Below are positions 12,301 through 49,156 of a stretch of DNA of 64,000 nucleotides, one piece after another. Below the pieces are notes generated by a model. That model did not search any database and was not told the origin of the DNA. It was given only the letters and a program-made list of their open reading frames with translations. Every line of letters starts with the position of its first letter. The first letter of the stretch is position 1. Made by a program: the position numbers and the translations under genes. Source of the stretch: a phage; sequence record PZ540767.1. One strand, written 5' to 3'.

Positions 12301-15300
12301 AATCAGCAAGATCGAAAGCCAGAACGTGCATGATGCTAACATCCTGTCTCCTGACAATGTGCTGAAAGGTGCTCGTATCCAGAACAAAGCTATGTTTGAT
12401 GCTGTGGTTTCTTATCATCCTCAACATCTGGCTGCTTCTGCACTGCTGACTGAAGTTCGTAGTCTGGCTGGTGCTAACCTGTCTACCAACGACAAGGTTG
12501 CAGCGAAGAAAGCTCTGGAAGCCATGAAGACTAAGATCCTGGGTAAAGACTTCAAGGGCAACATGAAAGCTGCTCTGAACACTATCCTTAACCAGGCATA
12601 TGATCGTGACATTAAGAAACTGGAGACTCTCTCTGAAGTCTATGCTGTTAACCAGTATGGTACTGAGGGGGGTGAATACCTGATCACTGATACTGATCGT
12701 AAGAAAATTGGTGATGAGATTGCACGTCTGAAACGTAGTCGTGCTGCTGGCTTACAACGTATCTCTGCTATGTTCTCTAAGGGTAATGCCCCAAAGGCTG
12801 AGGCCAACCAGTATCCTGATAAGATGAGACAATACCTGTATGAGGCTTCGGCCTCTACAGGCTCTGTGTCAGCTTCTGAGGTGATGGCTCGTACCAAAGG
12901 TAAGTTTGCTAACCCAGTATATAACGAACTCCACAATCTCATTTCTGGTTTGATTCCAGCTGATGCTGTGGTGAACGTACTGGATGGGCAGACTATGCCT
13001 AAGAATGTTAAGGGGCAGTCACTGCCCCAGAACCGTGATGCCATTGCATGGTCTTATCAAGATAAAAACACTGCACAGGTTAACCTGTCACTCAGCAAAG
13101 AGGCTTCACCTGAAGTCTTGCTGCATGAACTGACTCACATTGCTCTGGGACGTGCAATTGCTACTGCTGATTCAAATCCAAAAGTAAAAGCTGTACTGGC
13201 CCGTACAGAGAAGCTAATGGGTAGAGTGACCAAGCTGGTTTCAGCTGATCCTCAATTGACTCAGAAGTTTGCCCCTGCTTTGGCTAACGTGGATGAATTT
13301 ATCTCCTGGGGTATGACTAACCCAGAATTCCAACGTTACCTTGATACCATCACTGGTGTGCCTGAAATCTCAGGTCGTAACCGTGGATGGTTGGGTACTG
13401 CCTTTAAACAGTTTGTGGATCAAATGTCAGGCATCTTTGCTGCTGTAACTGGTCGAGCTATTAATGCTCGGGTTACTACTGCTCTGGAAGCTCTGACCTT
13501 CGATACTGCACATCTGGTTCAGGCTATTAATCCTACTGCTATTGAGAGTCCTGTATCTTCTATCAGCCACCCTATGAGCAACACTAACAGTGCTGCTGAT
13601 CAGGTAGCTAAGTTTAGCCATGTGGATATCTTTGATAACCTGGCTTCAACAGGTGGCAAGACTAACTCAGCACAGTTCACAGGTAACCTCCGTAATGTAA
13701 TATCCACTGTGGCGGATCAGCTTTACGGTGCTTTAGGCTCCAGAGTCACCCAGAATGCCAATGAGAATTATACTCCTGGTCAAGTCTGGAATGAGGCTGT
13801 AGCCACTGGGAAAGCCCCTGTCAGCACCGAAGCACTGAGCAATGGGTTTGTACTGACTAATCAGGAAGCCTTTGCTGTGGAGGCCATTGAGGCTGCTGTA
13901 TCTGAATCTCTGGCTTCTGGTTTCACTTCACCAGTTAACCGGGAGATTCGTCGTACTTGGCAAGCTGCTAAACAATCCCTGAAACCAGAAGACTTCCATA
14001 ATGGAAACTGGAATCAGGCAACTCAAGCAGAAAAACGAGCTGCTCAACAGAAATGGAATTATCTGTTTGATGTAACGAATGACTCTGGTGAGTCCCAGCA
14101 TCTGTCTCGTTTCGTTGCTATGGCTATTGGGCATGAAGACACCAGTAACTTACTTGGCTTCCAGATGGAAGATGGTAAGGACTCTGGTAATACTGCCTTT
14201 GAACAGGCTACTGCTTACTTTAACCAGGCTGTTAATACAGTCTCTGGCATGTTGACCAATACCCATCAAGGACAAGCTGCAAATGCTCGTGCTCAAGCAC
14301 TAGCTGAAAAGCTGATCCAGATTGAACTTAAGAACCGTGATACCACCATGAATATTCTTACTGGTGGGATCGACAAAGTAGAGAATGCCTTAGATACGGC
14401 TGCTGCTAAGTCTAAACAGTTCCTGGGTAAAATCGTTAAAGCTACTGGTATTGATCAGTCCTCCAACAATGCTCTGAATGCTATGGGCAAAGTTGCAGGA
14501 TTGGCTGCTCGTGATCAGCTGGGTAGCCTGAAAGAAACTATTAAAGAGTTCCGGGACTTTAATGCCCCTAGTACTCCAGAAGGTTCTCTGGCTTCCATTC
14601 TGACTGAAGCAACGAATGCTGATGATGTTCGTGCTCTGCATGAATCTCTGTTACGTTCTACTAAACGTATTGAACAGGATCGTGCAACCTTAGCTGCTGT
14701 TACTGCTAAGAACTTAAATGAGATGTTTGATAACAATGGTCAAGACCTGACTAAAGAAGATCGTACAGCAATGACTTACTCACTGCTTCGTACTGATCTT
14801 CAGTCTGTGTTGCACATTGAAGGTATGAACCTGAATAACTTACATAAACTGGTTTCTAATACTGGTTATCGTAAGCAGCAGATCAATAACCTTGAGAAAA
14901 CCATTAGCCAGTATGCTAACGGTAATGATAAGATCATTCGTGCCAAGGCTCTGGGATTCTGGATGGCTACTGGCAGAAATACCCTGGGACGTGATTTAGT
15001 TCTGAATGCAAAAGCTATTGCTACCGGAGCTGCTACTCACTATTCCACAGTAGGTATCGAACCGACTCTTGATGAAGTGAACGCCATTGATGCTCTGGCT
15101 TCAATGTACGCTCTAAGCTACACCAAGACCGAAAACCGTGTTCGCACTGCTGCTGTAATGGAACGTGAGCTTGCACGAGGTAAAGACAATGGCATTAAAA
15201 TGCTGATGGCTACTTATGCGAACCTGATTGAGGATTCTGCTAATACGCTGTTTGCTGGTAACCAGTTGTCTCGCATTAAAGGCTATTTGCCTGAAGATAC

Positions 15301-17050
15301 CAATCCTCATCATGACTTACGTGCGGTTGAGTCGGGGAGTGCAGATGAAGCAGCACTGGTGAACATGGGATACCAAAAAGTATCCCCACTGTCCCAGGAC
15401 TCTTTGTCAAAACACTCTGGACGTGTACTGTATGTGACCAAAGAGAATGGGTATCAACGAACCGTCTCTGGTACTTTCAGTTTAACTGGAAGCCAGCGTA
15501 AAGGTTCTTCCCTAAGTGGGGATCGTGCTGTTGCTGATCGTGTTCGAGCTGACGAGTTAGAACAGTTAAGGCAAGCGTCCTATGCAGACGTGCGAGGGCG
15601 TGAAGCACTGTCCCACACTGCCTTTGATCCTACTCAGATCCAGGATAACCATGTAGTGCCTGTATTAAGCACTGATGGTCATATCATGGACTTCCGTTAC
15701 ATGGCTACCCACAATACTCGTGACACGTTCCTTGATCGTAATAATGACTTTGCTGACCTTGTTGGTCGTCTGGCTGGTCAGAATATCGATAAGGGTGATG
15801 CCCCAAGCCAGAATGCTAAGATCCTGGAAGCTCTGCATGAAGACTCTAAGGCTAATATCCTGAAGAATCCTAATGCTTACTTTGAGATTGGGCCTAATGC
15901 ACCTACTGAGCGAGGACGTGAGATCTGGGCAATGATGCCTTATGAAGCACGTACTAAAGCTACTTCTCTGTGGGGTGCTGATCGTATGTATATTCGAAAC
16001 GATCTGGTTAACCTTACTTTTGGCTTCCGTAAGTATTCACTGGCTAACATTTTTGATGTTGATCCAGAACAGCGTAATATTGCTCAGGGTGTTGCTGCTG
16101 GTTTACTTGAAGCTGCTTTTGGTGATAAGGCTAAAGCTTATGTAATTAAGGGTGAGCGTGGCATTCAGGAATTTATGCAGTCCTATAAGGACGTGATCGT
16201 TATTCGTAACCTGAAAACCCAGTTCAGTAATATTATGTCTAATACTGCTCTACTGGCTGCTTATGGCGTTAACCCGGTACGTATGGTTAAAGATATCCGT
16301 ACTGCTCTGGTTGCTGGGATTGACTACCGTAAACAGTACTCGCTGCTACTCAAGTATCAGCAACAGCAACGTGCTGGTATTGGTAACTTTGCTCAGATGG
16401 AGTCCCTGATCAATGAGACGCAGGATCGCTTGAATGCTAACCCTCTGGCTAAGTTTATTCAGGCAGGTATGATGCCTACCATCGTAGAAGACGTTCAGCC
16501 TGATGCTGATGGTTACACTTATGGTTCTAAGATCCGTAAGAAATTTAATGAGGTATCTGCCCATCTGCCAGCTTCTGCTGTAACAGCTGCTCGCTGGGCT
16601 GTGATTGATAAAGGTACTGCACCTCATAAATTCTTAAGTGATGCTGCTCAGTTCAGTGACTTTGCTGCTAAGTATGCTCTGTATAAGCACCTGACAGAAC
16701 ATGCCCGAGATCGCCTGAGTCATACTGAGGCTTTACAACGTGCATCTGATGCTTTTGTTAACTATGACATTCCAGCTACAGCTACTCGCCAATATCTGGA
16801 TGATATGGGGATTACCATGTTTACGAAGTATCGTGTTCGTATCCAACGTGCAATGTTCTACTTGATGGATAAACGTCCAGCATCTGTTATGGCACATATG
16901 GCAATTACAGGGCAGTTTACTCATGCACCTGATGCTATGGAGCCACTGTTTGCACGTAACTTAGGTAACCCATTCACACCTTCAGTATTGCAGGGTGGGA
17001 GTTTGTTGAATGTCCCAATGCCTTGGAACTTATTCAGAATGGCATACTAA
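6368..17050 (+). CDS. Giant virion-associated RNA polymerase (vRNAP-like, 3560 aa)
   Basis: Single uninterrupted 10.7-kb ORF; size class matches N4 vRNAP (~3500 aa); sits at the end of the structural operon; followed by a strong terminator. Confidence 0.8.
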   Translation: MRLQSGYSTILRNTQMAGNSSPLDKFLVPQQVTGQEAAQALPAPTQPTIAQRVNDASTRILNNLTGQGMYPTEEGEIARLKRINNEQSAYAKEVAAKDSDYGWSSTNFLDPETSSLTDRTASTFVNYGKALTDAVNGLAGKTDKTFKTLGNVLDQASIPNDALDAYRRVQAGKGTEADNALLDRQGAWWTQPIEVNQYGVPEMGNQTLRQRLDAINERQKTQNQSSYDNLEKLANPVQMQQAAADIEKSIEGKSGLDKFAAGLAAIARNPGAAGQTMVESAPYMVGGIPGMLASSAMQGGSVLSQYLDTQRKASDGQIPTAKDVAIGTGLGVVDGALNFAESIINRTAMLPGSKVLPAGVADRLVNAAQRIAPRSSTAAAALARVTAPTLDLAKNALTEGLVSGAQNQIEENYAKGKNEWDTKGNDVAFFQGIAAATGFGAPRAALSTAGEVANTAAQAMQKRTEAQDPVGQAARNTTPEDLMNPQSEGYNPAAAIRRAGMEWTRNTDATTDEQKAEIQSQAQSAMDAAQNDHQNNLDMINQRATAERTLADAGKFIPAIQERLDQLSNDPNADPDAVNQLQTILAQQTEARDAAQQQLDAMPSQEELAQSATRSAEVLDQAKSEFGKFSSATGMNTNTAKPENPTASDIISHPMSYTNEDLQEFVRNAPANATPAELGTLRALADAKVAENAVKTGSKVNSEIFKSTSNNLSLGDYQQGINTAVQAGDTNRIQSLMTGINNFETSHTAKADIAQQYLNEAKQNGKSYQILKTSNGWELNTGKRLDAKAQAKNGGFTIHKGSTGLVNNIVNEAKAITATRQYMEGIATPSTNQNVTGSTEQVASPEAQPEGAATVAGETGAQEQQAQPTISPLTTRDIRAMDQATLEKVMATTQQAMSSDTNPVLARNLDALDREWTRRADVATNQNRGVDAPHRKLDDSFKPKAQENEIQRSQAETTTQTEHTQADIDNESTGSESQQTAPVNVDDVVTNTDTLTETQQDNVAHGALSIFGKVGESLKALREKALAEPKGLQNLVLTGFNQRVRPGFGSPLVAVKDFINTLKTAVDTGSFTEVNRFLKQHISESKAEGAKQKALLKQFVEFHDHITANLDNIIRTKAPEYRYQDFAQFILDENGNFDSNTKTGIAAGIFSWLGENGDKMFLNQSEVAKTLRIKEDQLTPQAMSRMADIGYRQDLIMSQLGQRIYQAMGFAKRADVDPNRASKLQNALGAYALHAMYSNGYMEQSLMTAKEYFDLQTMGLDEQSAKEAAQAFQNDFGVSPNDAKHKIVFSRPARNFDAEGKPVAIEAISDIKNGMKDTRSLMSKLFGYDPAVREVLTTKPAGFKQKVFGKMNREVPSVLAARISKAMQYDYTIDQGVVNAMRTMSTVDNAALQHIFGVRTDADVPNEMEIFKKGREAKNADIQRSMEMGLDFANRRGTNPFWMPMEVWTNQRIGDLASEFNPQGSKVHRAMGGLSAHQVEISVARNAPVLDADGKPTQYGLFLVSLAQGMEEAPVIGADGKKLKSVDKQTYATFLPAFQNYLRKPENIKAVRAMQKVIAGSATTADTNVIKNAVAEYGMNGQSFAALHNLAQYATALESGKSSVKLLAQMESDGVTNGPILTNILNGSADFDLLKRGGIYREGDNITNMPTYRELGGQDYYELLGDAMRQHWADYKTNAPASQQGQIQALEYFSTGYGARSKAKTLATPFNYSAGIPALKAAMGRATVEDVYSKIGSLIPLAKSNNKADFAKAYAEVSKNLSVLLGQKVNLPRTADGLVKFSLNPAQTKRIIDVDSQTRGVATETAVNEVAADFIASRDANTSLVNTTFTLANLRYNAAKAALLKKRIAEGKIPVDAKGAPLEGLTQADLDKLSRMIPNMPSATGVLSENTKASGYPMAKVEKAFTAKSPATSIDIYFKEAANPKPAMDANGMLLSQGLVGGYKSTQSTVTETKLTNPGVAMGANVTQGTDAAISSDVISKIESQNVHDANILSPDNVLKGARIQNKAMFDAVVSYHPQHLAASALLTEVRSLAGANLSTNDKVAAKKALEAMKTKILGKDFKGNMKAALNTILNQAYDRDIKKLETLSEVYAVNQYGTEGGEYLITDTDRKKIGDEIARLKRSRAAGLQRISAMFSKGNAPKAEANQYPDKMRQYLYEASASTGSVSASEVMARTKGKFANPVYNELHNLISGLIPADAVVNVLDGQTMPKNVKGQSLPQNRDAIAWSYQDKNTAQVNLSLSKEASPEVLLHELTHIALGRAIATADSNPKVKAVLARTEKLMGRVTKLVSADPQLTQKFAPALANVDEFISWGMTNPEFQRYLDTITGVPEISGRNRGWLGTAFKQFVDQMSGIFAAVTGRAINARVTTALEALTFDTAHLVQAINPTAIESPVSSISHPMSNTNSAADQVAKFSHVDIFDNLASTGGKTNSAQFTGNLRNVISTVADQLYGALGSRVTQNANENYTPGQVWNEAVATGKAPVSTEALSNGFVLTNQEAFAVEAIEAAVSESLASGFTSPVNREIRRTWQAAKQSLKPEDFHNGNWNQATQAEKRAAQQKWNYLFDVTNDSGESQHLSRFVAMAIGHEDTSNLLGFQMEDGKDSGNTAFEQATAYFNQAVNTVSGMLTNTHQGQAANARAQALAEKLIQIELKNRDTTMNILTGGIDKVENALDTAAAKSKQFLGKIVKATGIDQSSNNALNAMGKVAGLAARDQLGSLKETIKEFRDFNAPSTPEGSLASILTEATNADDVRALHESLLRSTKRIEQDRATLAAVTAKNLNEMFDNNGQDLTKEDRTAMTYSLLRTDLQSVLHIEGMNLNNLHKLVSNTGYRKQQINNLEKTISQYANGNDKIIRAKALGFWMATGRNTLGRDLVLNAKAIATGAATHYSTVGIEPTLDEVNAIDALASMYALSYTKTENRVRTAAVMERELARGKDNGIKMLMATYANLIEDSANTLFAGNQLSRIKGYLPEDTNPHHDLRAVESGSADEAALVNMGYQKVSPLSQDSLSKHSGRVLYVTKENGYQRTVSGTFSLTGSQRKGSSLSGDRAVADRVRADELEQLRQASYADVRGREALSHTAFDPTQIQDNHVVPVLSTDGHIMDFRYMATHNTRDTFLDRNNDFADLVGRLAGQNIDKGDAPSQNAKILEALHEDSKANILKNPNAYFEIGPNAPTERGREIWAMMPYEARTKATSLWGADRMYIRNDLVNLTFGFRKYSLANIFDVDPEQRNIAQGVAAGLLEAAFGDKAKAYVIKGERGIQEFMQSYKDVIVIRNLKTQFSNIMSNTALLAAYGVNPVRMVKDIRTALVAGIDYRKQYSLLLKYQQQQRAGIGNFAQMESLINETQDRLNANPLAKFIQAGMMPTIVEDVQPDADGYTYGSKIRKKFNEVSAHLPASAVTAARWAVIDKGTAPHKFLSDAAQFSDFAAKYALYKHLTEHARDRLSHTEALQRASDAFVNYDIPATATRQYLDDMGITMFTKYRVRIQRAMFYLMDKRPASVMAHMAITGQFTHAPDAMEPLFARNLGNPFTPSVLQGGSLLNVPMPWNLFRMAY

Positions 17051-39649: not shown

Positions 39650-39679
39650 GCATACGAAAGAAAAGGGGCCGAAGCCCCT
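39650..39679 (-). terminator. C(UUCG)G tetraloop terminator/attenuator upstream of DNA polymerase
   Basis: On - strand: aggggc-uucg-gcccct followed by UUUUCUUUC, then RBS and ATG 39632. Confidence 0.5.
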
Positions 39680-39684
39680 CGGTA

Positions 39685-41562
39685 CTACTTAAGCCAGGTT
39701 TTCAGTTCATCACTGACTTTCGGATCAAGTCCGAATGCTTTTGGCCCTTTCTTACGAGAGGACATGAAGAACTGGAGTTCCCCTGCTGCATCTTTGGTGT
39801 CAGCACGGTTACCTTTGGCTTTAGTCTCTTTGAAGACACGATACAGCTCTTGTGCCTGCTCTTTGACTGTCATAGCCTTACCTTCTGGTTTAGCTGGAGA
39901 TTCAGCTTTTGTTTCAGGAGTAGTGACTTTGATATCACTGGCTTCACGAATGGACAGGATCAGCTCTGCATCTTCATCAGAGATGCCCAGTTTAGCCCAG
40001 CCTTTCTTAGCTTTCTGTTTGGCAGAGATTAATTCCTCTGCAAACTTCTGGGCAGTAGCCAGATCTTCAGCCAGATAAGCAGCTTCAAATTGCTCCCAAA
40101 GGAGGTCAATTTTAGTCTTCTTGATTTCAGGGGCAATAACTGGGGCAGGTTCTTTCAGATCAGCAGCCAACACTGGCGATACTTTTTCAGTAGGTGCTGC
40201 TTCTGACAGATCAGATTGTTCCAGTGTTTCCTTAACCAGATCTACTTTTACTTCTTCAGCTTTTGCTGTTTCAGTATTTTCGACCTTGGTATAGGTTACA
40301 TTGCTGCCATTGTGACCACCCACTTCAACCAGTTCAGTAATGCCCACATGAGCACCACGCAGAACTTTGTTCAGCAGCTCTTTACCCTCTGGGATAGAAG
40401 AAATAGAGCCACCACTGTTAACGTGGTTACGCAGCGATTCAGGCAGTACAGCAAGGATGTGGTAACCACATACACGCATTTTAGTGCGGCTGTATTCTGG
40501 TACAGCAAAGACGTCTTCAGGACGTACTTTAGCCATCACAGTGACGTTACCAGGGAAGCTGCTGAGATAGCCCAGGGAAGCTACATGGAGGCCATTAGAG
40601 CAGTCCTGACGGCGGTTAGGATCTACCAGACCTGGTTTCATGAAGACATAGGAACCCACATTCTGTTTGATGTTCCCGGAATGAACATCCACGAAAGTTC
40701 CATGCTTCTCTTTGAGACGTTTGTAGATAACGATACAGCCGTCATCTGCAATAGGAAGATCACCATGTTCGATGAACTTCATCAGGTCTTCAGCAGAGTG
40801 ACCACGATCTTTCAGAACAGGTTCCAGACGGTTCAGGAAGTTTACGAAGCCACGGAAATCCTTCAGCTTACTTGCTGCTTTCATCTGAGATGATAGCTTG
40901 TGAGCATGAGGAATCACACTACCTGTCTTGGTGTTGACTGCCACAATGGTATCAGGATCTTCATCCGTGATAGGTTTGTGGAAATCAGGATCATCAACAG
41001 TACTACCTTTGCCTGCAAGCTCGCGCATACGGGCTGTAGCCAGATCGATTTTCTGATCATTGGTGAGTTCTGCTGGTTTGGTTACCTCATTTGCAGGGGC
41101 TTCAACTACTTCTTTCAATGCTTCTAGGGCTTCTTCTGCTTCTACTGCCGCAGATGGAGCTTCCAAAGCATAAGTGAGGTCATCAGCTTCCTCTACATCC
41201 AGAATGGTCTGGCCTGGCTTGATACCCAGTTCCAGTGGCGAGATGTGAGCAACACTCTCATCCACCTTTTCAGGGGATTCAGTGTCGATGAACTTTTTGA
41301 CGAAACTTTTGGCAACACGGAAGAACTTGATAAGTCCCCCAGTGCCTTCTTCAGTTTCTTTGAACTCATTGCGTACCTTGATAGGTTCTGCAATGTCTAC
41401 AACCGCAGAGCCATCCACAGGGATGTACTTTTTGGCTGTTTCGACGATGTTCGGCAAACGAGGATCACCCTGTGCAATGGTCACAGTACTGCCATCCTCT
41501 AAATAGAGGACAGCATTCTGAGCATCGACAGAGATTCCTACGATGGTCACTAGTTTTTTCAT
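39685..41562 (-). CDS. rIIB: rIIB-like protein (by position downstream of rIIA-like gene), 625 aa
   Basis: Start overlaps rIIA-like stop; acidic/Lys-rich C-terminal half; no catalytic motif recognised. Confidence 0.4.
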   Translation of the reverse strand: MKKLVTIVGISVDAQNAVLYLEDGSTVTIAQGDPRLPNIVETAKKYIPVDGSAVVDIAEPIKVRNEFKETEEGTGGLIKFFRVAKSFVKKFIDTESPEKVDESVAHISPLELGIKPGQTILDVEEADDLTYALEAPSAAVEAEEALEALKEVVEAPANEVTKPAELTNDQKIDLATARMRELAGKGSTVDDPDFHKPITDEDPDTIVAVNTKTGSVIPHAHKLSSQMKAASKLKDFRGFVNFLNRLEPVLKDRGHSAEDLMKFIEHGDLPIADDGCIVIYKRLKEKHGTFVDVHSGNIKQNVGSYVFMKPGLVDPNRRQDCSNGLHVASLGYLSSFPGNVTVMAKVRPEDVFAVPEYSRTKMRVCGYHILAVLPESLRNHVNSGGSISSIPEGKELLNKVLRGAHVGITELVEVGGHNGSNVTYTKVENTETAKAEEVKVDLVKETLEQSDLSEAAPTEKVSPVLAADLKEPAPVIAPEIKKTKIDLLWEQFEAAYLAEDLATAQKFAEELISAKQKAKKGWAKLGISDEDAELILSIREASDIKVTTPETKAESPAKPEGKAMTVKEQAQELYRVFKETKAKGNRADTKDAAGELQFFMSSRKKGPKAFGLDPKVSDELKTWLK

Positions 41563-44036
41563 GGTTTAGTTCCGTTTTTGAGTGCACTTAAAACGATGGT
41601 TTTCAGAGCAGAAGCTCGCTCTGGGTATTGAATGAGCCACTGAAGGACACTTCCGTCACCATGCCCAAGGGCACGTAACATAGGGTCTTTACGCAGCACT
41701 TTCAATTTCTTGATAAAGGGTAACTCTTCCAGCCTACCCCGCATGATGGTTTGGATAGGATCCCAGTTTTCATCTGCGTTGAGTTTCTCATACTCTTCTG
41801 GAGTATAAGCATAGACAGCCACCACAGACGGAGTAAGAGTGAGAATACGCTCAAAGTAAGGATCATACCGTAGTTTCTCTAAACCAGGCAGTTTAATGCC
41901 GAGTTTAGTACACAGCTTGATATCCTGAGATGAGATACGATGCTGAGTAGCCAAGGCTTTCTGGCGTTCTTTGGTAACATACTTTGCAAATGCTTTACTC
42001 AATACCACTTGTTTAACACGCGGTATAAAATAGGCATCTACATCGATAGCACCACGGTTCTCAGCCATACGGCGTTCGATACCATTACGAACAACTACCC
42101 CATCAAACAAGTCCTCTGGTGTAGCATCCTTCAGATGAATAAAGCTTCCCAGCATACCCCCATGGATATCATCAATAGAGATGAAATACTTAGGGTTTTG
42201 GTTCACCTGGGTTGGCTCTTTACAGGCAGTAATTTCACCTTTAAGTTTCCAGTTACCGTTTTTCAGATAAGCAGAGACAGTACCCAGATTATTGCCTGGT
42301 TTTTCAGCTTTAATCTTGGCTTTTTTCTCACGCTTTTCCTTTGCTTCAAGGATTTCTTGATAGGCAGGATCCCATTCTACACCTGGGGTTAGATCCACTA
42401 CAGTAAACCCAAGCTTTTCCAGTTTTGCTGTGACAGCAGCAATCTCAGGAGCTTTAGCTCGTGGATCCACTTTCAGTGCCCATGCAGCATTGGAAGTTCC
42501 CTGAACATAACCCTTATATGCTGACTTACTCGCAGCAATACCTTTCAAACGGGAAGTAAGAAACACTACCTGGTTTTCAAGGTAAGTTACGATTTGAGTT
42601 CCTGAGAATGGAATACGACGCATAAAGCCATCGCTATAGACATTACGGCCCCACCAGGTATTTTCCTGGGTACTAAAGCGTAAACTCTTAACCGAGATAA
42701 AATCAGCCCCAGCAATACCTCGCATAATACGTTTGATAGTATGTTTGCGAAGGAATGCATAGATAGCTTCACGGGTTCTGTGAGTGCCATATGTGGTAGC
42801 TTTACGTAAATCCCACAGAGCCTGGTTAGCATATAGCCATTCTGGATTAGTAAACTGGTATAACTTTTTGAAGCCAACATGTTCGGCTTCTTTGAGTTCT
42901 TTCCAGTACTTCATACGAATAGAGGATCCCAGGTTACTACCAAGATAGCGTTTAACTACGTTAGGTTGGATTTCCTCCAGAATGTTGGCAGTACTGCCAA
43001 TAGCAGGTTGTCCCTTATAAAACTTACCTTCACGCATACGCTTGCAAGTAGCAGCAATAGAAGAAGGAATCTGAGCAATGATATCCTTTTCCATGGTTGC
43101 AACTAATTGCACACAGAGATCGGTAAGACCATCTTCAGTCAGTTTCTGACTGGAGAGGGCTTCACGAGCTGGGGTTAATGCCAGAGTATCAGGGGCTGCT
43201 TGAACCAGCAGACGTTGAATACCAACGATCTCCATAAACTCTGAGAGCATTCCAGTGGCTTTGCTGGTGGCTTCTGTAAACAGCATTGGGTAGATGACAG
43301 CACCATAACGCACAAAGATTCTGTGGTTACCCATGTACTTGTTGTACCAGACTTCATCATCTGTATTCCATGAACCAGGCTCCTGGGACATACCCAGTTT
43401 AGCCATAGGCTCAAATTCGCCACCCATCCAACTGAGTTCTGCATTCATTTCACCATGCATAACCAGATACTTCAGGTAGGTATGAGCTGTCTGGGCCTGA
43501 TCCAGGGTTAAACGAAAGCTGACAGTTAAACCAGAGCGGGTAGTAGGGACGCTAACCATAGGTGTAATACCTGGTTTGCCCCGGTTCTCTACTACTGAAC
43601 GAGCCATGTTATAGACTGTCTTCGTTCCGTTGTGCTCAGAAGTCACACGGAAGGCATCCACAAGTGCCCATGGAGCTTTACTACCCAAACCAAAGCCACC
43701 GGTAGTCTTACTGTCGTTACGCTTGGTGGAAGCACCATAGGTGCCATAGATTTGGGCGATCTTCTCCGGGGGAATACCCAGACCGTTATCCTGAATGATC
43801 AGTTCACCATCAGTGGTGATGGAGATCTTCAGGGGTTGATCGGTAGTACCAGCTTCGATATTAGCATCCCATGCATTACACAGTGGCTCACGAATAGCTG
43901 CCAGCAGCTGGTTTGAATACAGGTTAGATGACAGCATCATCAGAAATGCAGCATCCTCTACCATAGATACAGCGAGAGTTTCCCCAGCACCCAGAGAGGC
44001 AGAGGTCGATTTGTTTTGCATATCCGCAACTTGCAT
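41559..44036 (-). CDS. rIIA: rIIA-like protein with N-terminal GHKL (Bergerat-fold) ATPase domain
   Basis: 'EPLCNAWDA' (N-box), 'DNGLGIP' (G1), 'GGFGLGSK' (G2) in the first 130 aa; 825 aa. Confidence 0.6.
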   Translation of the reverse strand: MQVADMQNKSTSASLGAGETLAVSMVEDAAFLMMLSSNLYSNQLLAAIREPLCNAWDANIEAGTTDQPLKISITTDGELIIQDNGLGIPPEKIAQIYGTYGASTKRNDSKTTGGFGLGSKAPWALVDAFRVTSEHNGTKTVYNMARSVVENRGKPGITPMVSVPTTRSGLTVSFRLTLDQAQTAHTYLKYLVMHGEMNAELSWMGGEFEPMAKLGMSQEPGSWNTDDEVWYNKYMGNHRIFVRYGAVIYPMLFTEATSKATGMLSEFMEIVGIQRLLVQAAPDTLALTPAREALSSQKLTEDGLTDLCVQLVATMEKDIIAQIPSSIAATCKRMREGKFYKGQPAIGSTANILEEIQPNVVKRYLGSNLGSSIRMKYWKELKEAEHVGFKKLYQFTNPEWLYANQALWDLRKATTYGTHRTREAIYAFLRKHTIKRIMRGIAGADFISVKSLRFSTQENTWWGRNVYSDGFMRRIPFSGTQIVTYLENQVVFLTSRLKGIAASKSAYKGYVQGTSNAAWALKVDPRAKAPEIAAVTAKLEKLGFTVVDLTPGVEWDPAYQEILEAKEKREKKAKIKAEKPGNNLGTVSAYLKNGNWKLKGEITACKEPTQVNQNPKYFISIDDIHGGMLGSFIHLKDATPEDLFDGVVVRNGIERRMAENRGAIDVDAYFIPRVKQVVLSKAFAKYVTKERQKALATQHRISSQDIKLCTKLGIKLPGLEKLRYDPYFERILTLTPSVVAVYAYTPEEYEKLNADENWDPIQTIMRGRLEELPFIKKLKVLRKDPMLRALGHGDGSVLQWLIQYPERASALKTIVLSALKNGTKP

Positions 44037-44242
44037 TTGAATATCCTCAAGTAAGATTTACTAAGACTTTTAATAAGAAAAAGCCAGAATAAATCTGGCT
44101 TATTTGTTAGGCAGCTTGATTTAAGGCTTCAATACCTTGTGGTGTGAGGTGCCAGCCATACATCTGATTAAACTTGATAAGGCCAGCTTTAGCTAAAGCA
44201 GTCCCTGTACGGTTTTTATTAGAACGAGGGGCAGTACCAGAC

Positions 44243-44611
44243 TTAGCCATCTTGAGGAAGACGACTTGTTGCTTCGAGAGCGGCATTTCTTTTCCTTTCA
44301 AAACGTAGGTTTTTGAGTCCTCCCGGATAGCTATCAGCTATACGTCTGGCAAGACGATGGGAGATATTAAAGTGAGCTTCGGCCTGTTCCAGCGTGTGAT
44401 CAAAGAGATAATCCAGGATTTTAATTCTGGTTTCATCTCTGATCTCTTTACGCAATTCAGAAAGTCCAAGCACCCTGATTGCAGAGTCTATTGAGTTAAT
44501 AGATCTCCCCAAACAGACAGCAAGTCTTTTAATGGGCATACCTCGTAGGTAGTTATCAATCAGGAAGCTTTTTTCTTCTTTAGTCCATGGCCTCCTAATT
44601 GATGAGGCCAT
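44243..44611 (-). CDS. Putative HTH DNA-binding protein (122 aa)
   Basis: 'IKRLAVCLGRSINSIDSAIRVLGL' helix-turn-helix-like. Confidence 0.4.
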   Translation of the reverse strand: MASSIRRPWTKEEKSFLIDNYLRGMPIKRLAVCLGRSINSIDSAIRVLGLSELRKEIRDETRIKILDYLFDHTLEQAEAHFNISHRLARRIADSYPGGLKNLRFERKRNAALEATSRLPQDG

Positions 44612-44976
44612 TAGTCAGGCTCTTTAGGCAACTTGCTTGCCATAGCTTGCAGGGTGAATACAGCCATATCAGATGCCTGATCATCGCTGATTTCAGCTAA
44701 ATCAAAGTCCCAGGATTCATCCCACTCTTCAGCGATTCGTTGAACTTCACCTAGACCGGCATTCACCATGTCTTTGGTAGGCTCTATCCAGAGCTTTTCC
44801 AACTGTTCAATACGATCCAGCAAGACTGTGATCATTGCTGGTGAAGTGAGTTCACGCCATTGACTGATAGCTGTAACACGCTCATCCAGTTTCATGGTTT
44901 GAGTACTCAATGCCTGTTCAGCTACTGGAAGCAGCTTACGAAGGTCATGCATAACATCTTTGACTACTGGTTTCAT
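44611..44976 (-). CDS. Hypothetical acidic protein (121 aa)
   Basis: ORF with ATG; start/stop overlaps with neighbours. Confidence 0.45.
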   Translation of the reverse strand: MKPVVKDVMHDLRKLLPVAEQALSTQTMKLDERVTAISQWRELTSPAMITVLLDRIEQLEKLWIEPTKDMVNAGLGEVQRIAEEWDESWDFDLAEISDDQASDMAVFTLQAMASKLPKEPD

Positions 44977-45494
44977 ATGATTGATCCTTTGTTAACCCCA
45001 ATGCTTTCCATCGTTTTACGACGTTTAAACATTGAGATTGCTTTTGCATGTTCTTTACGGAATTCTACGATTTGCTCTGAAGATACCGAAGTGGGTTCAT
45101 CATGAGCTTTTAATCCTATTGACCTGATAGTTTCATGCATAGCTTCAGGCAGAAGGACAAAAAAGTCAGATAGACTGCCACTATTAGCTACGAGATCCCT
45201 CAGAAGGTATTCGTAGTAATTACCCTCAAGTTCTTCCATTTGACGTAACTGGTCATACCGTTCGTCAAAGGCTTCACATAATGAAGGGTGTAGTTGAACT
45301 ACAGGGGCATCCTCTATTACGTAAGTTGGGTGATGCTCCCCATTTCTGGTGAAATACTTAGAACCTGTTAAAGCTGTGTGTTTAGGCACTATCTCTTCGA
45401 ACACCCAAACTTTAAAGTCTGTTTTGGCTTTATCAAACATAGCCTGTTTGAAACACCGACAAAAAAGATCCATTTCAGTGGTCTTAATTATCAT
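44973..45494 (-). CDS. Hypothetical protein (173 aa)
   Basis: Track start is TTG; first ATG 45494 after ggggga RBS; stop overlaps next gene. Confidence 0.45.
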   Translation of the reverse strand: MIIKTTEMDLFCRCFKQAMFDKAKTDFKVWVFEEIVPKHTALTGSKYFTRNGEHHPTYVIEDAPVVQLHPSLCEAFDERYDQLRQMEELEGNYYEYLLRDLVANSGSLSDFFVLLPEAMHETIRSIGLKAHDEPTSVSSEQIVEFRKEHAKAISMFKRRKTMESIGVNKGSII

Positions 45495-46888
45495 GGTATA
45501 TCCCCCGTAAGTACTACCTGCAAACGAGCACGAGAAATAGCTACGTAGAGCAGGCGACGAAGCTGATCGATATCCCGGCAACGATTGAGGTCACCCAAGT
45601 CCACATAGACACGACGGAAGGTGGAACCTTGTGCTTTATGGATAGTGCATCCGAACACTGGACGTAGATCGATCCAGGTACTTTTAACCTTATCCAAGGC
45701 ATTTTTGATTGCGGTGAACTCTTCTGGGTTTTCTGCGAAAACCATTCCCTGAAGCTTCTTGGAGTAACGTCTTAACAGCTTATCTTTGGCCTTTTTATCA
45801 TTAGGCATAAAATAAGCTTGAACTTTCTCACCTGATTTAAAATCCTTTGAACCTTTACGGTTACGGTCGGTATAAACCCAGTGCCCTTCTTCCCCCAACT
45901 GTTTACCTCGTTCTAAACCAGTAAGGTAAACGAGACGGTCTGTGCCAATAGCAGGTAGGACATTCTTAATGCCCCCTACATAGCTGTTACAGATCGCATA
46001 GTCACCTTCTCTGAGCGTCTGAGAGCCAGTAACCTGAGAATAAATCTTATGGTTTACTTCGTTCACACGCTTGTTGGTAAAGGCCAGGAATTTGCTGGTG
46101 GAGTATTCCCATTCATCACGGGACATATCCCTGATCATCCCTGCTTCGAACTTACTACGTTCTACCCAGATGATGTTCTTACCGTCCACATTACATGGAG
46201 GAGTAGGGCCACCTTCAAGCACCCATTGACGAAGACGCTTAGATAACGCCTGTACAGGGTTATCGTCAGACTGTCTCATGATCTGGGTTAACTCGACCAT
46301 GGGGAAGCGTCCTTCTTCGAATACAGGCAAGTCACCTTCAGCAGTCTTACATTGGGCTTTGTCACCCATGAAGATTACTTTGGTGCCTTTACCCAGCTTC
46401 ATATAGATATGCTCTAACAAGGTCATATCGATGTAGCTGGCTTCATCAACAAAGACGAAGGTATTCCACAGCAATTCATCTGGTTTATGGGATACGAGAA
46501 CATCCTTATAAGTCTTAGGATCTTCTTCCATACCCAACCGAAGCAAGCTATGGATCGTCTTTGCAGTACAACCCATAGCATGTTCGAAGGCTTCAGCAGC
46601 CTTATTGGTGGTAGCTGTGAATTCGACGCGGGGATTACGCTGTACTTTAATCCCCAGTGCTTCCATCGTCTTTTGTACTTTTTCCAGATGTTCAAGCACA
46701 TACTTAATGACGGTGGTTTTCCCTGTACCAGCAGCACCAGATAAGACCATTACCTGATTACTGTTGAATATCATGGGATCTTCATCCCCCTTAAAGCGGG
46801 GGACATAGATATCATGAGGTTGATGTTTGTTAAGCAGAAAGTCCGTGATGAACTCACAGGCTTTCTGTTGACCTTGGGATAGCTGCAT
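45491..46888 (-). CDS. SF1 DNA helicase (Dda/RecD-like)
   Basis: Walker A 'GAAGTGKTT', 'VFVDEASY' Walker B, C-terminal 'TIHKAQGSTF' motif. Confidence 0.8.
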   Translation of the reverse strand: MQLSQGQQKACEFITDFLLNKHQPHDIYVPRFKGDEDPMIFNSNQVMVLSGAAGTGKTTVIKYVLEHLEKVQKTMEALGIKVQRNPRVEFTATTNKAAEAFEHAMGCTAKTIHSLLRLGMEEDPKTYKDVLVSHKPDELLWNTFVFVDEASYIDMTLLEHIYMKLGKGTKVIFMGDKAQCKTAEGDLPVFEEGRFPMVELTQIMRQSDDNPVQALSKRLRQWVLEGGPTPPCNVDGKNIIWVERSKFEAGMIRDMSRDEWEYSTSKFLAFTNKRVNEVNHKIYSQVTGSQTLREGDYAICNSYVGGIKNVLPAIGTDRLVYLTGLERGKQLGEEGHWVYTDRNRKGSKDFKSGEKVQAYFMPNDKKAKDKLLRRYSKKLQGMVFAENPEEFTAIKNALDKVKSTWIDLRPVFGCTIHKAQGSTFRRVYVDLGDLNRCRDIDQLRRLLYVAISRARLQVVLTGDIP

Positions 46889-46912: not shown

Positions 46913-48094
46913 CTATACAAGCCCTTCCATTGTAAAGTGAACCACTTTGCCAAATTTTGGTACAAAGTTGGGGTTATCATAAACGAACCAGATTACAGGA
47001 CGTTTAGGATCTACCAGATTGTGCTGGCTGAGGTAACCATCAGTCAGGATAAACATCCCCAGTGATGCTTTATCACGGGCGAAGTCTTCGATGGTACTGT
47101 CGATGCAAGTACCGCCACCACCACTGAATTTAACATTGAGCAGATCACGTACTGTACATATACGAGAGATATCCTTGATATCAGTATCAAACTGATACAG
47201 CTTTATCTCGTCTGGTTTAAACAGTTTCAGTACCTGATAAACACCACCTAAGAAGATGGTGAACTCTTTCTTGCCAATGGAACCAGATACGTCAATAGCC
47301 CATGAAATACGTCCCAGGGACTTACCACGGCGTTCTGGAGCAGTGATATCGTGTACCAGCATACGACGACGAAGACGTGACCATGTACGGCCAGGCTTAC
47401 GTGTGACCTTCTCACAGAAGATCTTCAGATAGTGCTGCCAAGGAATTGGAGGATTCAGGAGATCCTCAATACGGCGAGCCATATCCTTAGTACCACGCCC
47501 AAACTGTTTACCAGTCTGGTTTGCCTCAGCCATTTCAGCTGCCATGTTAGCACCCAGTAAGATGCTATCAATTTGCTGCTTCTGGCTATCCTGTTCTTCT
47601 TGGGTCAGGGACTGTTTATTGAAATCAGGCATAGGGTTTTTACCCTTGTGAGTGCCTGGTTTCTTAGCCTCTTCCTGTTGAAGAATCCGGTATACCTGCA
47701 TGGTGGTCATACCATCAAAGCGGGAGTCTACCAATACCTTAATAGTTGTAGGCATTGGCATTCCAGACTTTTTCAATTCCAGGTTGATTACATAGTCACC
47801 AGCCTGGTTCCACAGATCTTCATCCAGATCGGCAGGGAAAGTAGTGCAGTGTTCATGCACAATATGCCCAACTTCATGAGCCACCACAAAAGGGTGTTCA
47901 GCAGGTTTGAGCATCTCCATGAATTTCTGGTTGTAATACACGGTTAAAGAATCCGTGTAAGCAGAATCACAAGGGTGCCCAGCGGGCACTTCCTTATGTT
48001 TTAATCTGAGGATCATTGAAGCCCAGAACACATACTTCTCATCCAAAGCCAGGGTAGTAAAGGCTTTGTCGAGGATCTTCTCAAGTGGTGACAT
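46913..48094 (-). CDS. vWA-domain protein with N-terminal HExxH metallopeptidase-like domain
   Basis: 'HEVGHIVHEH' zinc-binding-like motif; 'IDVSGSIG' MIDAS motif. Confidence 0.6.
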   Translation of the reverse strand: MSPLEKILDKAFTTLALDEKYVFWASMILRLKHKEVPAGHPCDSAYTDSLTVYYNQKFMEMLKPAEHPFVVAHEVGHIVHEHCTTFPADLDEDLWNQAGDYVINLELKKSGMPMPTTIKVLVDSRFDGMTTMQVYRILQQEEAKKPGTHKGKNPMPDFNKQSLTQEEQDSQKQQIDSILLGANMAAEMAEANQTGKQFGRGTKDMARRIEDLLNPPIPWQHYLKIFCEKVTRKPGRTWSRLRRRMLVHDITAPERRGKSLGRISWAIDVSGSIGKKEFTIFLGGVYQVLKLFKPDEIKLYQFDTDIKDISRICTVRDLLNVKFSGGGGTCIDSTIEDFARDKASLGMFILTDGYLSQHNLVDPKRPVIWFVYDNPNFVPKFGKVVHFTMEGLV

Positions 48095-48103
48095 TGTAAT
48101 TCC

Positions 48104-49156
48104 TTAGAAAAGTTCGTCAGCGTGGCGAGTACACCAGTTGCTTACCTCAGCATTACTGCCGAGTTTAGGGTTACGTGCAATGATGCTGCGCATTGAGATT
48201 ACCTGGTAGGACGCTGGCATACGCTCAATGAAGGTCATTGCTTTAGCAATGTTATCTTCAGCTACACCACGAGCCAGTACACCAGTCAGCGCATACATCC
48301 AGGATGGTTCATTAGTAGGGATACGAGCACCTTCAGGATCTTTGAGGATCTGTTCCATAGTTACTACTTTAGAGAAGTAGGTAACGAAGGTACGGAAGCT
48401 ACGTCCAGTGGCTACACCTACAGTGCCGTCGATCATCGGTTCCCAGCCTTCAATAGATTCCAGCGGGGTGATGAGCTTGGACAGCATAGACCAGGTACGA
48501 GCACACGCATGGGTATACTCGTTGGCATCCGGGTTGAATTTGTTGAATGCATCTGGCTCGTAGTTGAGGAATGCCACAATACGAGGATCCAGAGTTGCAG
48601 TGAACAGTTTCAGCCAGTACTTCAGGTTTTCTTTGATGGTCAGGTTGACCACACGAGAACCCAGAGCAGTACCCAGAGAGGATGCAATTGCACCATCATC
48701 TTCACGGTTACCAGCAGCCATGATCCACATACGTTTGTGTACGTGTTTCTGGCCTACTTTCTTGTCCAGAATGAACTTGTAGCTTGCAGCTTTGGTGTCG
48801 TCAGCAGCAGAGGTCAGTTCGTCCAGCAGTACCAGGAAACCAGCGTACTGCTTGCCAGTTTTAGGGTTAACCGGGATAGGATCACCTTCCAGCGGGATTT
48901 CATCCAGAGGGATGTATTTACCCTTGGTTTTGTCATCGTTGAAGCCCAGTACGCCATTCATGTCTACTGGTTCCATACCAGCCAAACGCAGGTCGATCAG
49001 CAGCAGGTTGTAAGTATCAGCTACTTCCTGCGCAATAGAGGATTTACCGAAGCCAGGAGCACCATACAGCATTGGTACAAGACCCTGCTTCATGATGTGG
49101 GCTACGGTAGTAGCAGCTTTGGAAATGTCGAGCGGAGTTGTCAGAGTCGTTGCCAT
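48104..49156 (-). CDS. MoxR-like AAA+ ATPase
   Basis: Walker A 'GAPGFGKSS', Walker B 'LVLLDELT'; adjacent to vWA gene. Confidence 0.6.
   Translation of the reverse strand: MATTLTTPLDISKAATTVAHIMKQGLVPMLYGAPGFGKSSIAQEVADTYNLLLIDLRLAGMEPVDMNGVLGFNDDKTKGKYIPLDEIPLEGDPIPVNPKTGKQYAGFLVLLDELTSAADDTKAASYKFILDKKVGQKHVHKRMWIMAAGNREDDGAIASSLGTALGSRVVNLTIKENLKYWLKLFTATLDPRIVAFLNYEPDAFNKFNPDANEYTHACARTWSMLSKLITPLESIEGWEPMIDGTVGVATGRSFRTFVTYFSKVVTMEQILKDPEGARIPTNEPSWMYALTGVLARGVAEDNIAKAMTFIERMPASYQVISMRSIIARNPKLGSNAEVSNWCTRHADELF

What the first reader, a model, noticed from the sequence alone, without database searches (positions are those of the whole stretch)
39685..44036. rIIA-like GHKL ATPase with a 625-aa downstream partner
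41559-44036 has clear Bergerat-fold ATPase motifs at its N-terminus as in T4 rIIA; the coupled downstream gene is about twice the length of T4 rIIB, with an acidic/Lys-rich C-terminal extension. rII proteins are linked to exclusion and lysis-inhibition phenomena whose mechanism remains unresolved, so an enlarged rIIB-like partner may add a function.
Basis: partly seen in the sequence, partly recalled or inferred. Interest (0 to 1): 0.35.

Follow-up and report, generated by a model that had tools for sequence, protein, structure and literature searches.

The report
Ordinary N4-type phage rIIA–rIIB gene pair
This is the standard rIIA/rIIB gene pair of an N4-like Klebsiella phage, already annotated in near-identical published genomes; the "double-length" rIIB is normal for this phage family, not a special enlargement.

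Summary
There are two minus-strand ORFs with an ATGA stop/start overlap: 41559-44036 (825 aa) and 39685-41562 (625 aa). The first has an intact N-terminal GHKL (Bergerat) ATPase and is an rIIA. The second carries the conserved rIIB core (aa ~246-378), which matches the C-terminal 130 residues of T4 rIIB.

The window is an N4-like podophage (Schitoviridae, Efbeekayvirus), about 93% identical in DNA to Klebsiella phages FBKp27 and P184. Their RefSeq records already label these genes RIIA and RIIB.

The long rIIB is not an enlargement peculiar to this phage. N4 gp34 is 696 aa, and 125 N4-type homologues span 461-712 aa (median 614). The extra length consists of:
- a disordered acidic linker;
- a conserved segment just after the core;
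- two copies of a ~55-aa helical "KKGW..LGF" module separated by disordered linkers.

This module is found almost only in N4-type rIIB and always ends the protein. In 15 of 125 homologues a canonical HTH takes its place, of the kind T4 rIIB carries at its N-terminus.

Published knock-downs show that N4 RIIA and RIIB counter lambda RexAB. The molecular mechanism remains unknown, and Foldseek found no solved structure resembling the rIIB model. Verdict: real, correctly interpreted, already known, low interest.

The parts
41559..44036 (-). rIIA gene (825 aa), orthologue of N4 gp33.
   Evidence: ORF. PHROG 2979 RIIA E 4.6e-185 over aa 1-741, and T4-type PHROG 612 E 6.3e-52 over aa 14-382. BLASTP to T4 rIIA gives 34% identity, E 2e-16. 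36% identical to N4 gp33.
43467..43949 (-). GHKL/Bergerat ATPase domain of rIIA (aa ~30-190), with E50, N54, D57, D83xGxG87, G113GFGLG118 and K120.
   Evidence: Pfam HATPase_c_3 E 4.9e-10. Aligned to TopoVI-B 1z59/1mu5. Motif residues are invariant across 8 rIIA proteins including T4.
44044..44048 (-). Shine-Dalgarno-like GAGGA, 7 nt upstream of the rIIA ATG.
   Evidence: Read directly from the sequence.
44081..44101 (-). Terminator-like hairpin plus T-run immediately upstream of rIIA; it closes the preceding transcription unit.
   Evidence: Scan. A terminator is annotated at the equivalent place in NC_068555.
41559..41562 (-). ATGA overlap of the rIIA stop and the rIIB start (translational coupling).
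39685..41562 (-). rIIB gene (625 aa), orthologue of N4 gp34.
   Evidence: ORF. PHROG 2886 RIIB E 9.5e-165 over aa 1-536. 41% identical to N4 gp34. AF2 model with mean pLDDT 79.8.
41278..41562 (-). rIIB N-terminal domain (aa 1-95), conserved in N4-type rIIB (QGDPR ... FFRV).
   Evidence: Alignments A1 and A2. pLDDT 80-96.
41068..41265 (-). Disordered acidic linker (aa ~100-165, net charge -14); an indel hot spot.
   Evidence: pLDDT 41-53. Charge. 9- and 26-aa deletions here in phages that are >90% identical.
40273..41067 (-). Structured central region (aa 166-430): helical part, rIIB core and a post-core segment specific to N4-type phages.
   Evidence: pLDDT about 77-95 per 10-residue block, mostly around 90. 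Invariant residues include D259, K281, D292, D314, R317, C321-S-x-G-x-H326, E349, D350, K361, R363, G403 and G419.
40429..40827 (-). Universal rIIB core (aa 246-378), homologous to T4 rIIB aa 179-312.
   Evidence: BLASTP 31% identity, E 7e-17. hhalign probability 98.8%, E 9e-17. tblastn finds this stretch in 2900 phage records.
40114..40272 (-). Disordered linker (aa 431-483).
   Evidence: pLDDT 40-44.
39934..40113 (-). C-terminal helical module, copy 1 (aa 484-543; ...AKQKAKKGWAKLGISDEDAELI...).
   Evidence: pLDDT 90-93, three helices. Module HMM domain at aa 474-537, E 2e-13.
39688..39867 (-). C-terminal helical module, copy 2 (aa 566-625; ...SSRKKGPKAFGLDPKVSDELKTWLK); it ends the protein.
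   Evidence: pLDDT 93-97. Module HMM domain at aa 552-624, E 3e-13. K604, K605 and G611 are invariant in 7 N4-type phages.
39663..39680 (-). GC-rich terminator-like hairpin plus T-run, 5 nt after the rIIB stop codon.

Best explanation
This is the rIIA-rIIB operon of an N4-like (Schitoviridae, Efbeekayvirus) Klebsiella phage, orthologous to N4 gp33/gp34 and more distantly to T4 rIIA/rIIB. It is a bicistronic, translationally coupled unit set between two terminator-like hairpins, inside the replication-gene block (helicase upstream, DNA polymerase downstream).

Shown:
- rIIA has a catalytically complete GHKL ATPase head.
- rIIB has the universal rIIB core.
- The N4-type family adds an N-terminal domain, disordered linkers and one to three C-terminal 'KKGW..LGF' helical modules; this protein has two.

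Taken from the literature: knock-down of N4 RIIA or RIIB lowers plating on E. coli expressing lambda RexAB and has no effect without it. The most likely role is therefore conditional counter-defence against Rex-like abortive-infection systems of prophages in the host, not lysis inhibition as the database label suggests.

Inferred, not shown:
- The two proteins act as one complex; natural rIIA-rIIB fusions exist.
- rIIA works as an ATP-driven dimerising clamp, like other GHKL proteins.
- rIIB supplies targeting through an accessory binding element. This is an HTH in T4 and in some N4-type phages, and the C-terminal modules (net positive on average across the family) in most N4-type phages, this one included.
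- The likely target is DNA or another polyanionic surface, so that the signal sensed by the DNA-binding RexA-type sensor is masked or removed.
For: Identity:
- PHROG and Pfam matches.
- BLASTP and hhalign to T4.
- Foldseek hits to rIIB models only.
- 93% DNA identity to phages whose genes are annotated RIIA/RIIB.
- The same gene order in N4, PW7, PWJ, OLIVR1, Axy24 and Piffle.

ATPase competence: invariant E50/N54/D57, DxGxG and GGFGLGxK, aligned to TopoVI-B.

Operon structure: ATGA overlap and flanking hairpins.

Complex formation: PHROG 609 (1055 positions) matches rIIA at its N-terminus and rIIB at its C-terminus, and RB43 has a fused 'RIIA-RIIB' protein of 1049 aa.

Function:
- N4 RIIA/RIIB knock-down sensitises the phage to RexAB (PMC11879866).
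- T4 rII insertions are depleted only in the presence of RexAB.

Accessory-domain argument:
- 108 of 125 homologues end in the module.
- 15 of the 17 without it end in an HTH_23/28/29-type HTH; the other 2 end in Lys/Ala/Pro basic tails.
- T4 rIIB has the same HTH type at aa 7-50.
- Modules are on average net positive across the family (+3.7 terminal, +2.4 internal).
Against: - No experiment exists for this phage or for any Klebsiella host. Which defence system it meets there is unknown.
- The anti-Rex data come from N4 in E. coli with a heterologous lambda system. N4 is only 36% (rIIA) and 41% (rIIB) identical to this pair.
- Nothing demonstrates binding by the C-terminal modules. Module 1 of this protein is net acidic (-5).
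- Profile comparison of the module with the T4 HTH found no homology, and no Pfam family matches the module.
- T4 rII proteins are classically described as membrane-associated (my own knowledge). A membrane rather than a DNA target is therefore equally possible. No transmembrane segment is present.
- Foldseek found no solved structure resembling the rIIB model, so the core's activity is unknown.
Confidence: 0.7

Rival explanations
1. The pair is a lysis-inhibition system, as the database product names ('RIIA/RIIB lysis inhibitor') imply. It would delay holin triggering to raise burst size.
For: PHROG and RefSeq labels. N4 shows natural lysis inhibition (bioRxiv 10.1101/2025.11.12.688109).
Against: The N4 lysis study attributes lysis inhibition to holin regulation. 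It reports that all rapid-lysis mutations found so far lie in membrane proteins (SAR endolysin, gp63 pinholin), not in rII. For T4 it lists the holin, rI, rIII and spackle as the lysis-inhibition components. Neither protein here has a transmembrane segment. N4 rII knock-downs have no phenotype without RexAB.
Confidence: 0.07
2. rIIB is chiefly a transcription factor that modulates the phage transcription programme, as Iyer et al. proposed for jumbo phages. rIIA would be an ATP-dependent cofactor.
For: T4 rIIB and 15 of 125 N4-type rIIB proteins carry a canonical HTH. PMC7824862 calls rIIB a specific transcription factor.
Against: This protein and 108 of 125 relatives have no recognisable HTH. 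The universal part of the family is the non-HTH core. Knock-down is neutral without RexAB, which does not fit a needed regulator.
Confidence: 0.1
3. The pair is an accessory of the replication machinery, for example a GHKL ATPase handling DNA topology or tethering replicating DNA. The anti-Rex effect would be a by-product.
For: The genes lie between the Dda/RecD-like helicase and the family-A DNA polymerase, and next to replication genes in other N4-type phages. The nearest solved GHKL relative is topoisomerase VI-B.
Against: Only the ATPase head resembles TopoVI-B. No Toprim or DNA-cleavage partner is present. The genes are dispensable in N4 and T4 on hosts lacking Rex.
Confidence: 0.1
4. One reading: this rIIB was specifically enlarged, and its C-terminal extension adds a new function absent from ordinary rIIB proteins.
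For: The protein is twice the length of T4 rIIB. The C-terminal module matches no Pfam family and Foldseek found no solved structure resembling any part of the rIIB model.
Against: The extension is the family norm across Schitoviridae. It is interchangeable with an HTH of the kind T4 already has. N4, which has the same architecture, shows the same anti-RexAB phenotype as T4.
Confidence: 0.08

Closest known systems
Klebsiella phages vB_KpP_FBKp27 (gp42/gp41) and vB_KpnP_P184, genus Efbeekayvirus
   Same: 92-93% DNA identity over the whole 4352-bp stretch. Same two genes in the same order and with the same overlap, annotated 'RIIA lysis inhibitor' and 'RIIB lysis inhibitor' in RefSeq. rIIB proteins are 93-94% identical.
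   Different: Their rIIB is 616 aa. The 9-aa difference (EEALEALKE) lies in the acidic linker.
Escherichia phage N4 gp33 (RIIA, 841 aa) and gp34 (RIIB, 696 aa)
   Same: Same architecture for both proteins, including the rIIB N-domain, core, post-core segment and C-terminal KKGW-type modules. The genes are adjacent. This is the only N4-type pair with functional data (anti-RexAB).
   Different: 36% (rIIA) and 41% (rIIB) identity. N4 gp34 has a roughly 90-residue insert in the first linker that is absent here. In N4 the pair lies upstream of the helicase; here it lies between the helicase and the polymerase.
Escherichia phage T4 rIIA (725 aa) and rIIB (312 aa)
   Same: GHKL head with identical catalytic motifs. 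rIIB core with the CSxGLH motif. Adjacent genes in the order A then B.
   Different: In T4 the rIIB core is the extreme C-terminus, and an HTH sits at aa 7-50. T4 has no KKGW modules, acidic linker or post-core segment. rIIA similarity to the T4-type family profile (PHROG 612) is detectable only to about aa 380.
Fused RIIA-RIIB proteins (Escherichia phage RB43, 1049 aa; PHROG 609)
   Same: They contain both the rIIA GHKL head and the rIIB core, which supports the idea that the two act together.
   Different: One polypeptide instead of two coupled genes.
GHKL ATPases such as topoisomerase VI-B, MORC, Hsp90 and MutL
   Same: Bergerat-fold ATP site with the N-box, G1 box and ATP-lid.
   Different: Similarity is confined to about 130 residues. 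All NCBIfam scores are far below their family cut-offs. No topoisomerase or mismatch-repair partner domains are present.

Membership tests
rIIA (T4 rIIA / N4 gp33 family) | N-terminal GHKL ATPase with a complete N-box, G1 box and Gly-rich ATP-lid | tested here: met
   Pfam HATPase_c_3 E 4.9e-10. E50/N54/D57, D83xGxG87 and G113GFGLG118-K120 are invariant with T4 and N4 and align to TopoVI-B.
rIIA (T4 rIIA / N4 gp33 family) | Sequence homology to bona fide rIIA beyond the generic GHKL fold | tested here: met
   PHROG 2979 E 4.6e-185 (aa 1-741) and PHROG 612 E 6.3e-52 (aa 14-382). BLASTP to T4 rIIA E 2e-16. Shared YG..YP and P-x-RE motifs at aa 244-250 and 289-292.
rIIA (T4 rIIA / N4 gp33 family) | Encoded immediately upstream of an rIIB gene | tested here: met
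   ATGA overlap with the rIIB ORF.
rIIB (T4 rIIB / N4 gp34 family) | Conserved rIIB core domain (~130 aa, with the CSxGLH and PEDV motifs) | tested here: met
   BLASTP to T4 rIIB aa 179-312, E 7e-17. hhalign probability 98.8%. PHROG 2886 E 9.5e-165. C321, S322, G324 and H326 are invariant in 125 sequences. Foldseek matches to rIIB models down to E 7e-40.
rIIB (T4 rIIB / N4 gp34 family) | Helix-turn-helix domain as in T4 rIIB. Present in some members and not universal, so not strictly defining. | tested here: not met
   No HTH family matches this protein at E <= 1. T4 rIIB and P0146, P0201 and P0208 do match HTH_23/28/29.
N4-type (Schitoviridae) rIIB subfamily | N-terminal QGDPR...FFRV domain, a post-core G-x-H segment, and a terminal KKGW..LGF module | tested here: met
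   Alignments A1 and A2. Two module copies, at aa 474-537 and 552-624.
rII counter-defence function (anti-RexAB) | Required for growth on hosts carrying RexAB-type exclusion and dispensable otherwise | not testable with these tools
   Shown for T4 and N4 only (PMC11879866; bioRxiv 10.1101/2025.11.20.689424).
Topoisomerase VI-B / MORC / other cellular GHKL families | Whole-protein match above the curated family cut-off | tested here: not met
   The best NCBIfam hit is TopoVI-B at 37 bits against a cut-off of 274. PADLOC finds only weak matches to the GHKL head of TmtA and to a type II restriction enzyme model.

The most novel reading that the evidence does not exclude
The C-terminal 'KKGW..LGF' unit may be an undescribed, self-contained three-helix domain.
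- It occurs in one to four copies, as counted in the representative-library search, and almost only in N4-type rIIB.
- In this set it is mutually exclusive with a terminal HTH or a Lys/Ala/Pro basic tail.

If it is a polyanion-binding (DNA-binding) domain, then rIIB would be the targeting subunit that brings the rIIA GHKL ATPase onto phage DNA or replication intermediates. That would give a concrete, testable mechanism for how rII proteins blind the DNA-binding RexA-type sensor, a question open since Benzer.
Probability: 0.25. Interest if true: 0.5.

Novelty: already known. Interest (0 to 1): 0.15.

Why it matters
This instance matters little. The gene pair is a conserved, already annotated feature of N4-like phages, and its nearest relatives are published.

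Its modest value is comparative. The analysis shows that rIIB is a modular protein. A universal core of unknown fold is combined with interchangeable accessory elements: an HTH at either end, KKGW repeats, basic tails, or an L7/L12-like insert. That narrows where to look for the still-unknown mechanism by which rII proteins defeat Rex-type abortive infection and trigger bacterial gasdermin/CARD defence.

For Klebsiella phage therapy, the pair is a candidate determinant of plating on lysogens.

Tried and rejected
- Homology between the C-terminal module and the T4 rIIB N-terminal HTH, which looked plausible by eye: hhalign gave no match (E 0.65, 4 columns). A profile of the C-terminal HTH variants hit the T4 N-terminus only weakly (E 0.058 among 309 sequences). 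I therefore claim functional interchangeability only, not homology.
- Pfam scans of the module found nothing consistent, either in this protein or in 33 family members.
- PDB searches for rIIB found nothing significant, by sequence or by Foldseek on a good AF2 model.
- The first two large protein searches returned almost only relatives at >=86% identity. A third search from a sparsely sampled clade (OLIVR1) was needed to obtain a diverse alignment.
A single-sequence run was not attempted because it would be uninformative.
- A PADLOC scan found only weak GHKL-head matches.
- I considered a Zn or catalytic role for the nearly invariant Cys at position 293. This protein has Val there, so it is not essential.
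- No transmembrane segments were found that would explain the classical membrane association.
- No tRNAs are present in the window.

Full report
**Observation.** The stop codon of the first and the start codon of the second share the four bases ATGA. A GAGGA Shine-Dalgarno-like motif lies 7 nt before the first ATG. Terminator-like hairpins followed by T-runs lie just upstream of the first gene (44101-44081) and 5 nt after the second (39680-39663). The pair therefore looks like a self-contained bicistronic unit.

**What the window is.** The 4.35-kb stretch is 92-93% identical to a group of Klebsiella podophages (cp20, FBKp27, P184 and others). These are classified as Schitoviridae, genus Efbeekayvirus, and the RefSeq records of FBKp27 and P184 already label the two genes 'RIIA lysis inhibitor' and 'RIIB lysis inhibitor'. 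The window also contains a 3560-aa ORF, which I take to be the giant virion RNA polymerase typical of N4-like phages (N4 gp50 is so annotated). The neighbours of the pair are a Dda/RecD-type helicase, a DUF2201 metallopeptidase/VWA protein and a family-A DNA polymerase.

**rIIA.**
- Pfam finds the GHKL ATPase domain at aa 46-154 (HATPase_c_3, E 4.9e-10).
- PHROG 2979 (RIIA) matches aa 1-741 at E 4.6e-185. The T4-type RIIA family PHROG 612 matches aa 14-382 at E 6.3e-52.
- BLASTP to T4 rIIA gives 34% identity over aa 15-137, E 2e-16.
- In an alignment with six N4-type rIIA proteins and T4 rIIA, the catalytic residues are invariant: E50, N54, D57; D83-x-G-x-G87; G113-G-F-G-L-G118 and K120. Two further motifs are also invariant (Y244-G ... 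Y249-P, and P289-x-R-E292).
- A residue-level alignment to the solved TopoVI-B structures puts these residues on the N-box, G1 box and ATP-lid.
- The remaining ~440 residues are poorly conserved even within Schitoviridae. This agrees with the published description of a highly variable rIIA C-terminal region (PMC7824862).

**rIIB.**
- BLASTP to T4 rIIB aligns aa 246-378 with T4 residues 179-312, which is the very C-terminus of the T4 protein (31% identity, E 7e-17).
- A 125-sequence family profile gives hhalign probability 98.8% (E 9e-17) over the same core.
- PHROG 2886 (RIIB) matches aa 1-536 at E 9.5e-165.
- tblastn finds the core in 2900 phage records, but near-full-length coverage in only 177; the high-coverage records listed were N4-like phages.

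**Structure of rIIB.** An AlphaFold2 model built on the diverse alignment is good (mean pLDDT 79.8, pTM 0.62). It divides the protein as follows:

| Region (aa) | Description |
|---|---|
| 1-95 | N-terminal domain |
| ~100-165 | Disordered acidic linker |
| 166-430 | Well-ordered helical-plus-core region |
| 431-483 | Disordered linker |
| 484-543 | Three-helix module, copy 1 |
| 544-565 | Short disordered linker |
| 566-625 | Helical module, copy 2; ends the protein |

Foldseek found no PDB entry with E <= 0.001. The viral predicted-structure library gave 29 significant hits. All those with an informative name are rIIB proteins apart from one labelled 'Transposase', and they include the fused 'RIIA-RIIB' protein of phage RB43.

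**Is the length unusual?** No. rIIB is 696 aa in N4, 678 in PW7, 668 in Piffle, 599 in OLIVR1, 594 in PWJ and 530 in Axy24. It spans 461-712 aa (median 614) in 125 homologues from public data. Relative to T4, the extra ~313 residues are the acidic linker, a conserved post-core segment (G403, H405, V412 and G419 are invariant in seven phages), the second linker and the two terminal modules. Among near-identical Efbeekayviruses, the length differences (599-627 aa) map to indels in the acidic linker.

**The C-terminal module.**
- The unit has the consensus ...T-K-x-E-x-A-R-x-L-Y...L-x-x-F-K-K-x-x-K-K-G-W-x-x-L-G-F-x-x-x-E-I-x-x-I.
- I used it as a profile against 1.84 billion representative proteins. 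It found 458 proteins at E <= 0.001, with one to four copies each.
- The long hits have typical N4-type rIIB lengths. Most of the 40 shorter ones I inspected look like C-terminal fragments of such proteins.
- In the 125-sequence set, 108 proteins have one to three copies, and the last copy always ends the protein.
- Of the 17 without a module, 15 end in a canonical helix-turn-helix and two end in Lys/Ala/Pro-rich basic tails.
- The three HTH-ended proteins that I scanned match Pfam HTH_23/28/29. T4 rIIB matches the same families at its N-terminus, aa 7-50.
- Direct homology between the module and the HTH was tested and not supported. No Pfam family matches the module.
- Across the family the modules are net positive on average (+3.7 terminal, +2.4 internal). 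In this protein, copy 1 is -5 and copy 2 is +5.
- I infer, without proof, that the module is an alternative accessory binding element and not a new enzymatic function.

**Function.** The open literature in the library gives direct evidence for the N4 orthologues. [quoted passage not shown] Transposon data confirm the same conditional requirement for T4.

Other relevant reports:
- The BASEL study notes the rIIAB locus of N4-type phages.
- T6 RIIB expression alone triggers a bacterial gasdermin/CARD defence system (PMC10312443).
- The recent N4 lysis study places lysis inhibition in the holin/SAR-endolysin system, with no rII involvement reported. The 'lysis inhibitor' product name is therefore historical and not mechanistic.

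**Mechanism: what is shown and what is inferred.**

Shown here:
- orthology to the N4 and T4 rII pairs;
- intact ATPase motifs;
- translational coupling of the two genes;
- the modular architecture of rIIB;
- the family-wide distribution of the long rIIB form.

Taken from the literature: a conditional anti-RexAB role for the N4 pair.

Inferred:
- The two proteins form a complex. This is supported by natural fusions.
- rIIA is an ATP-driven clamp.
- rIIB's terminal element targets the complex to DNA or another polyanion.

Neither protein has a transmembrane segment.

**Verdict.** The finding is real and the family assignment is right. However, this is an ordinary, already annotated member of a known gene pair, and the 'enlarged rIIB' is the norm for its phage family. 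The only mildly new point is the description of the repeated C-terminal module and its mutual exclusivity with an HTH. That is a property of the whole N4-type family, not of this window.

Noticed in passing
L007:2989-5025 (Klebsiella phage PW7 rIIB), P0121 aa 159-211, P0296 aa 45-83; not in the window: Some N4-type rIIB proteins carry an insert resembling the ribosomal protein L7/L12 C-terminal domain (PF00542, E 1.6e-5 to 1.5e-4, just under the gathering score). In PW7 and P0121 it sits in the linker before the core; in P0296 it sits between two C-terminal modules. N4 gp34 has an insert at the same place as PW7, but that insert did not reach Pfam reporting.
   Followed up: partly
window 46913-48094 (-): This 393-aa ORF is a DUF2201_N metallopeptidase (HExxH) plus a DUF2201 VWA-like domain (E 2.5e-31 and 5e-17). 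The gene of the same length (1182 nt) at the same position relative to the helicase in RefSeq NC_068555 (gp48), and N4 gp25, are labelled 'HNH endonuclease'. This looks like a propagated mis-annotation.
   Followed up: partly
window 41098-41175 (-), rIIB aa 130-155: The acidic linker of rIIB is an indel hot spot among phages that are >90% identical. A 9-aa stretch (EEALEALKE) and a 26-aa stretch are present here and absent in FBKp27-like and P0113-like proteins.
   Followed up: yes
window 6368-17050 (+): A 3560-aa ORF, presumably the giant virion-encapsidated RNA polymerase typical of N4-like phages. I did not scan the ORF itself.
   Followed up: no
window 48104-49156 (-), 44973-45581 (-), 44611-44976 (-), 44243-44611 (-): Four ORFs near the rII pair (350, 202, 121 and 122 aa) have no Pfam match at E <= 0.001. 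Going by gene order and length, the counterpart of the 350-aa ORF in FBKp27 is annotated 'ATPase'.
   Followed up: no
all N4-type rIIB homologues (P0001-P0249): Pfam accession PF26926 is precomputed on every homologue, but the local Pfam copy gave no such hit. Its name and boundaries could not be checked. It may already describe part of the rIIB architecture.
   Followed up: no
window 40600-40617 (-), rIIB aa 316-321... and aa 293: The Cys in the 'VDCHSG' motif is conserved in >=90% of N4-type rIIB and in T4. It is Val in this phage and in PW7. The invariant C321-S-x-G-L-H326 motif is retained.
   Followed up: partly
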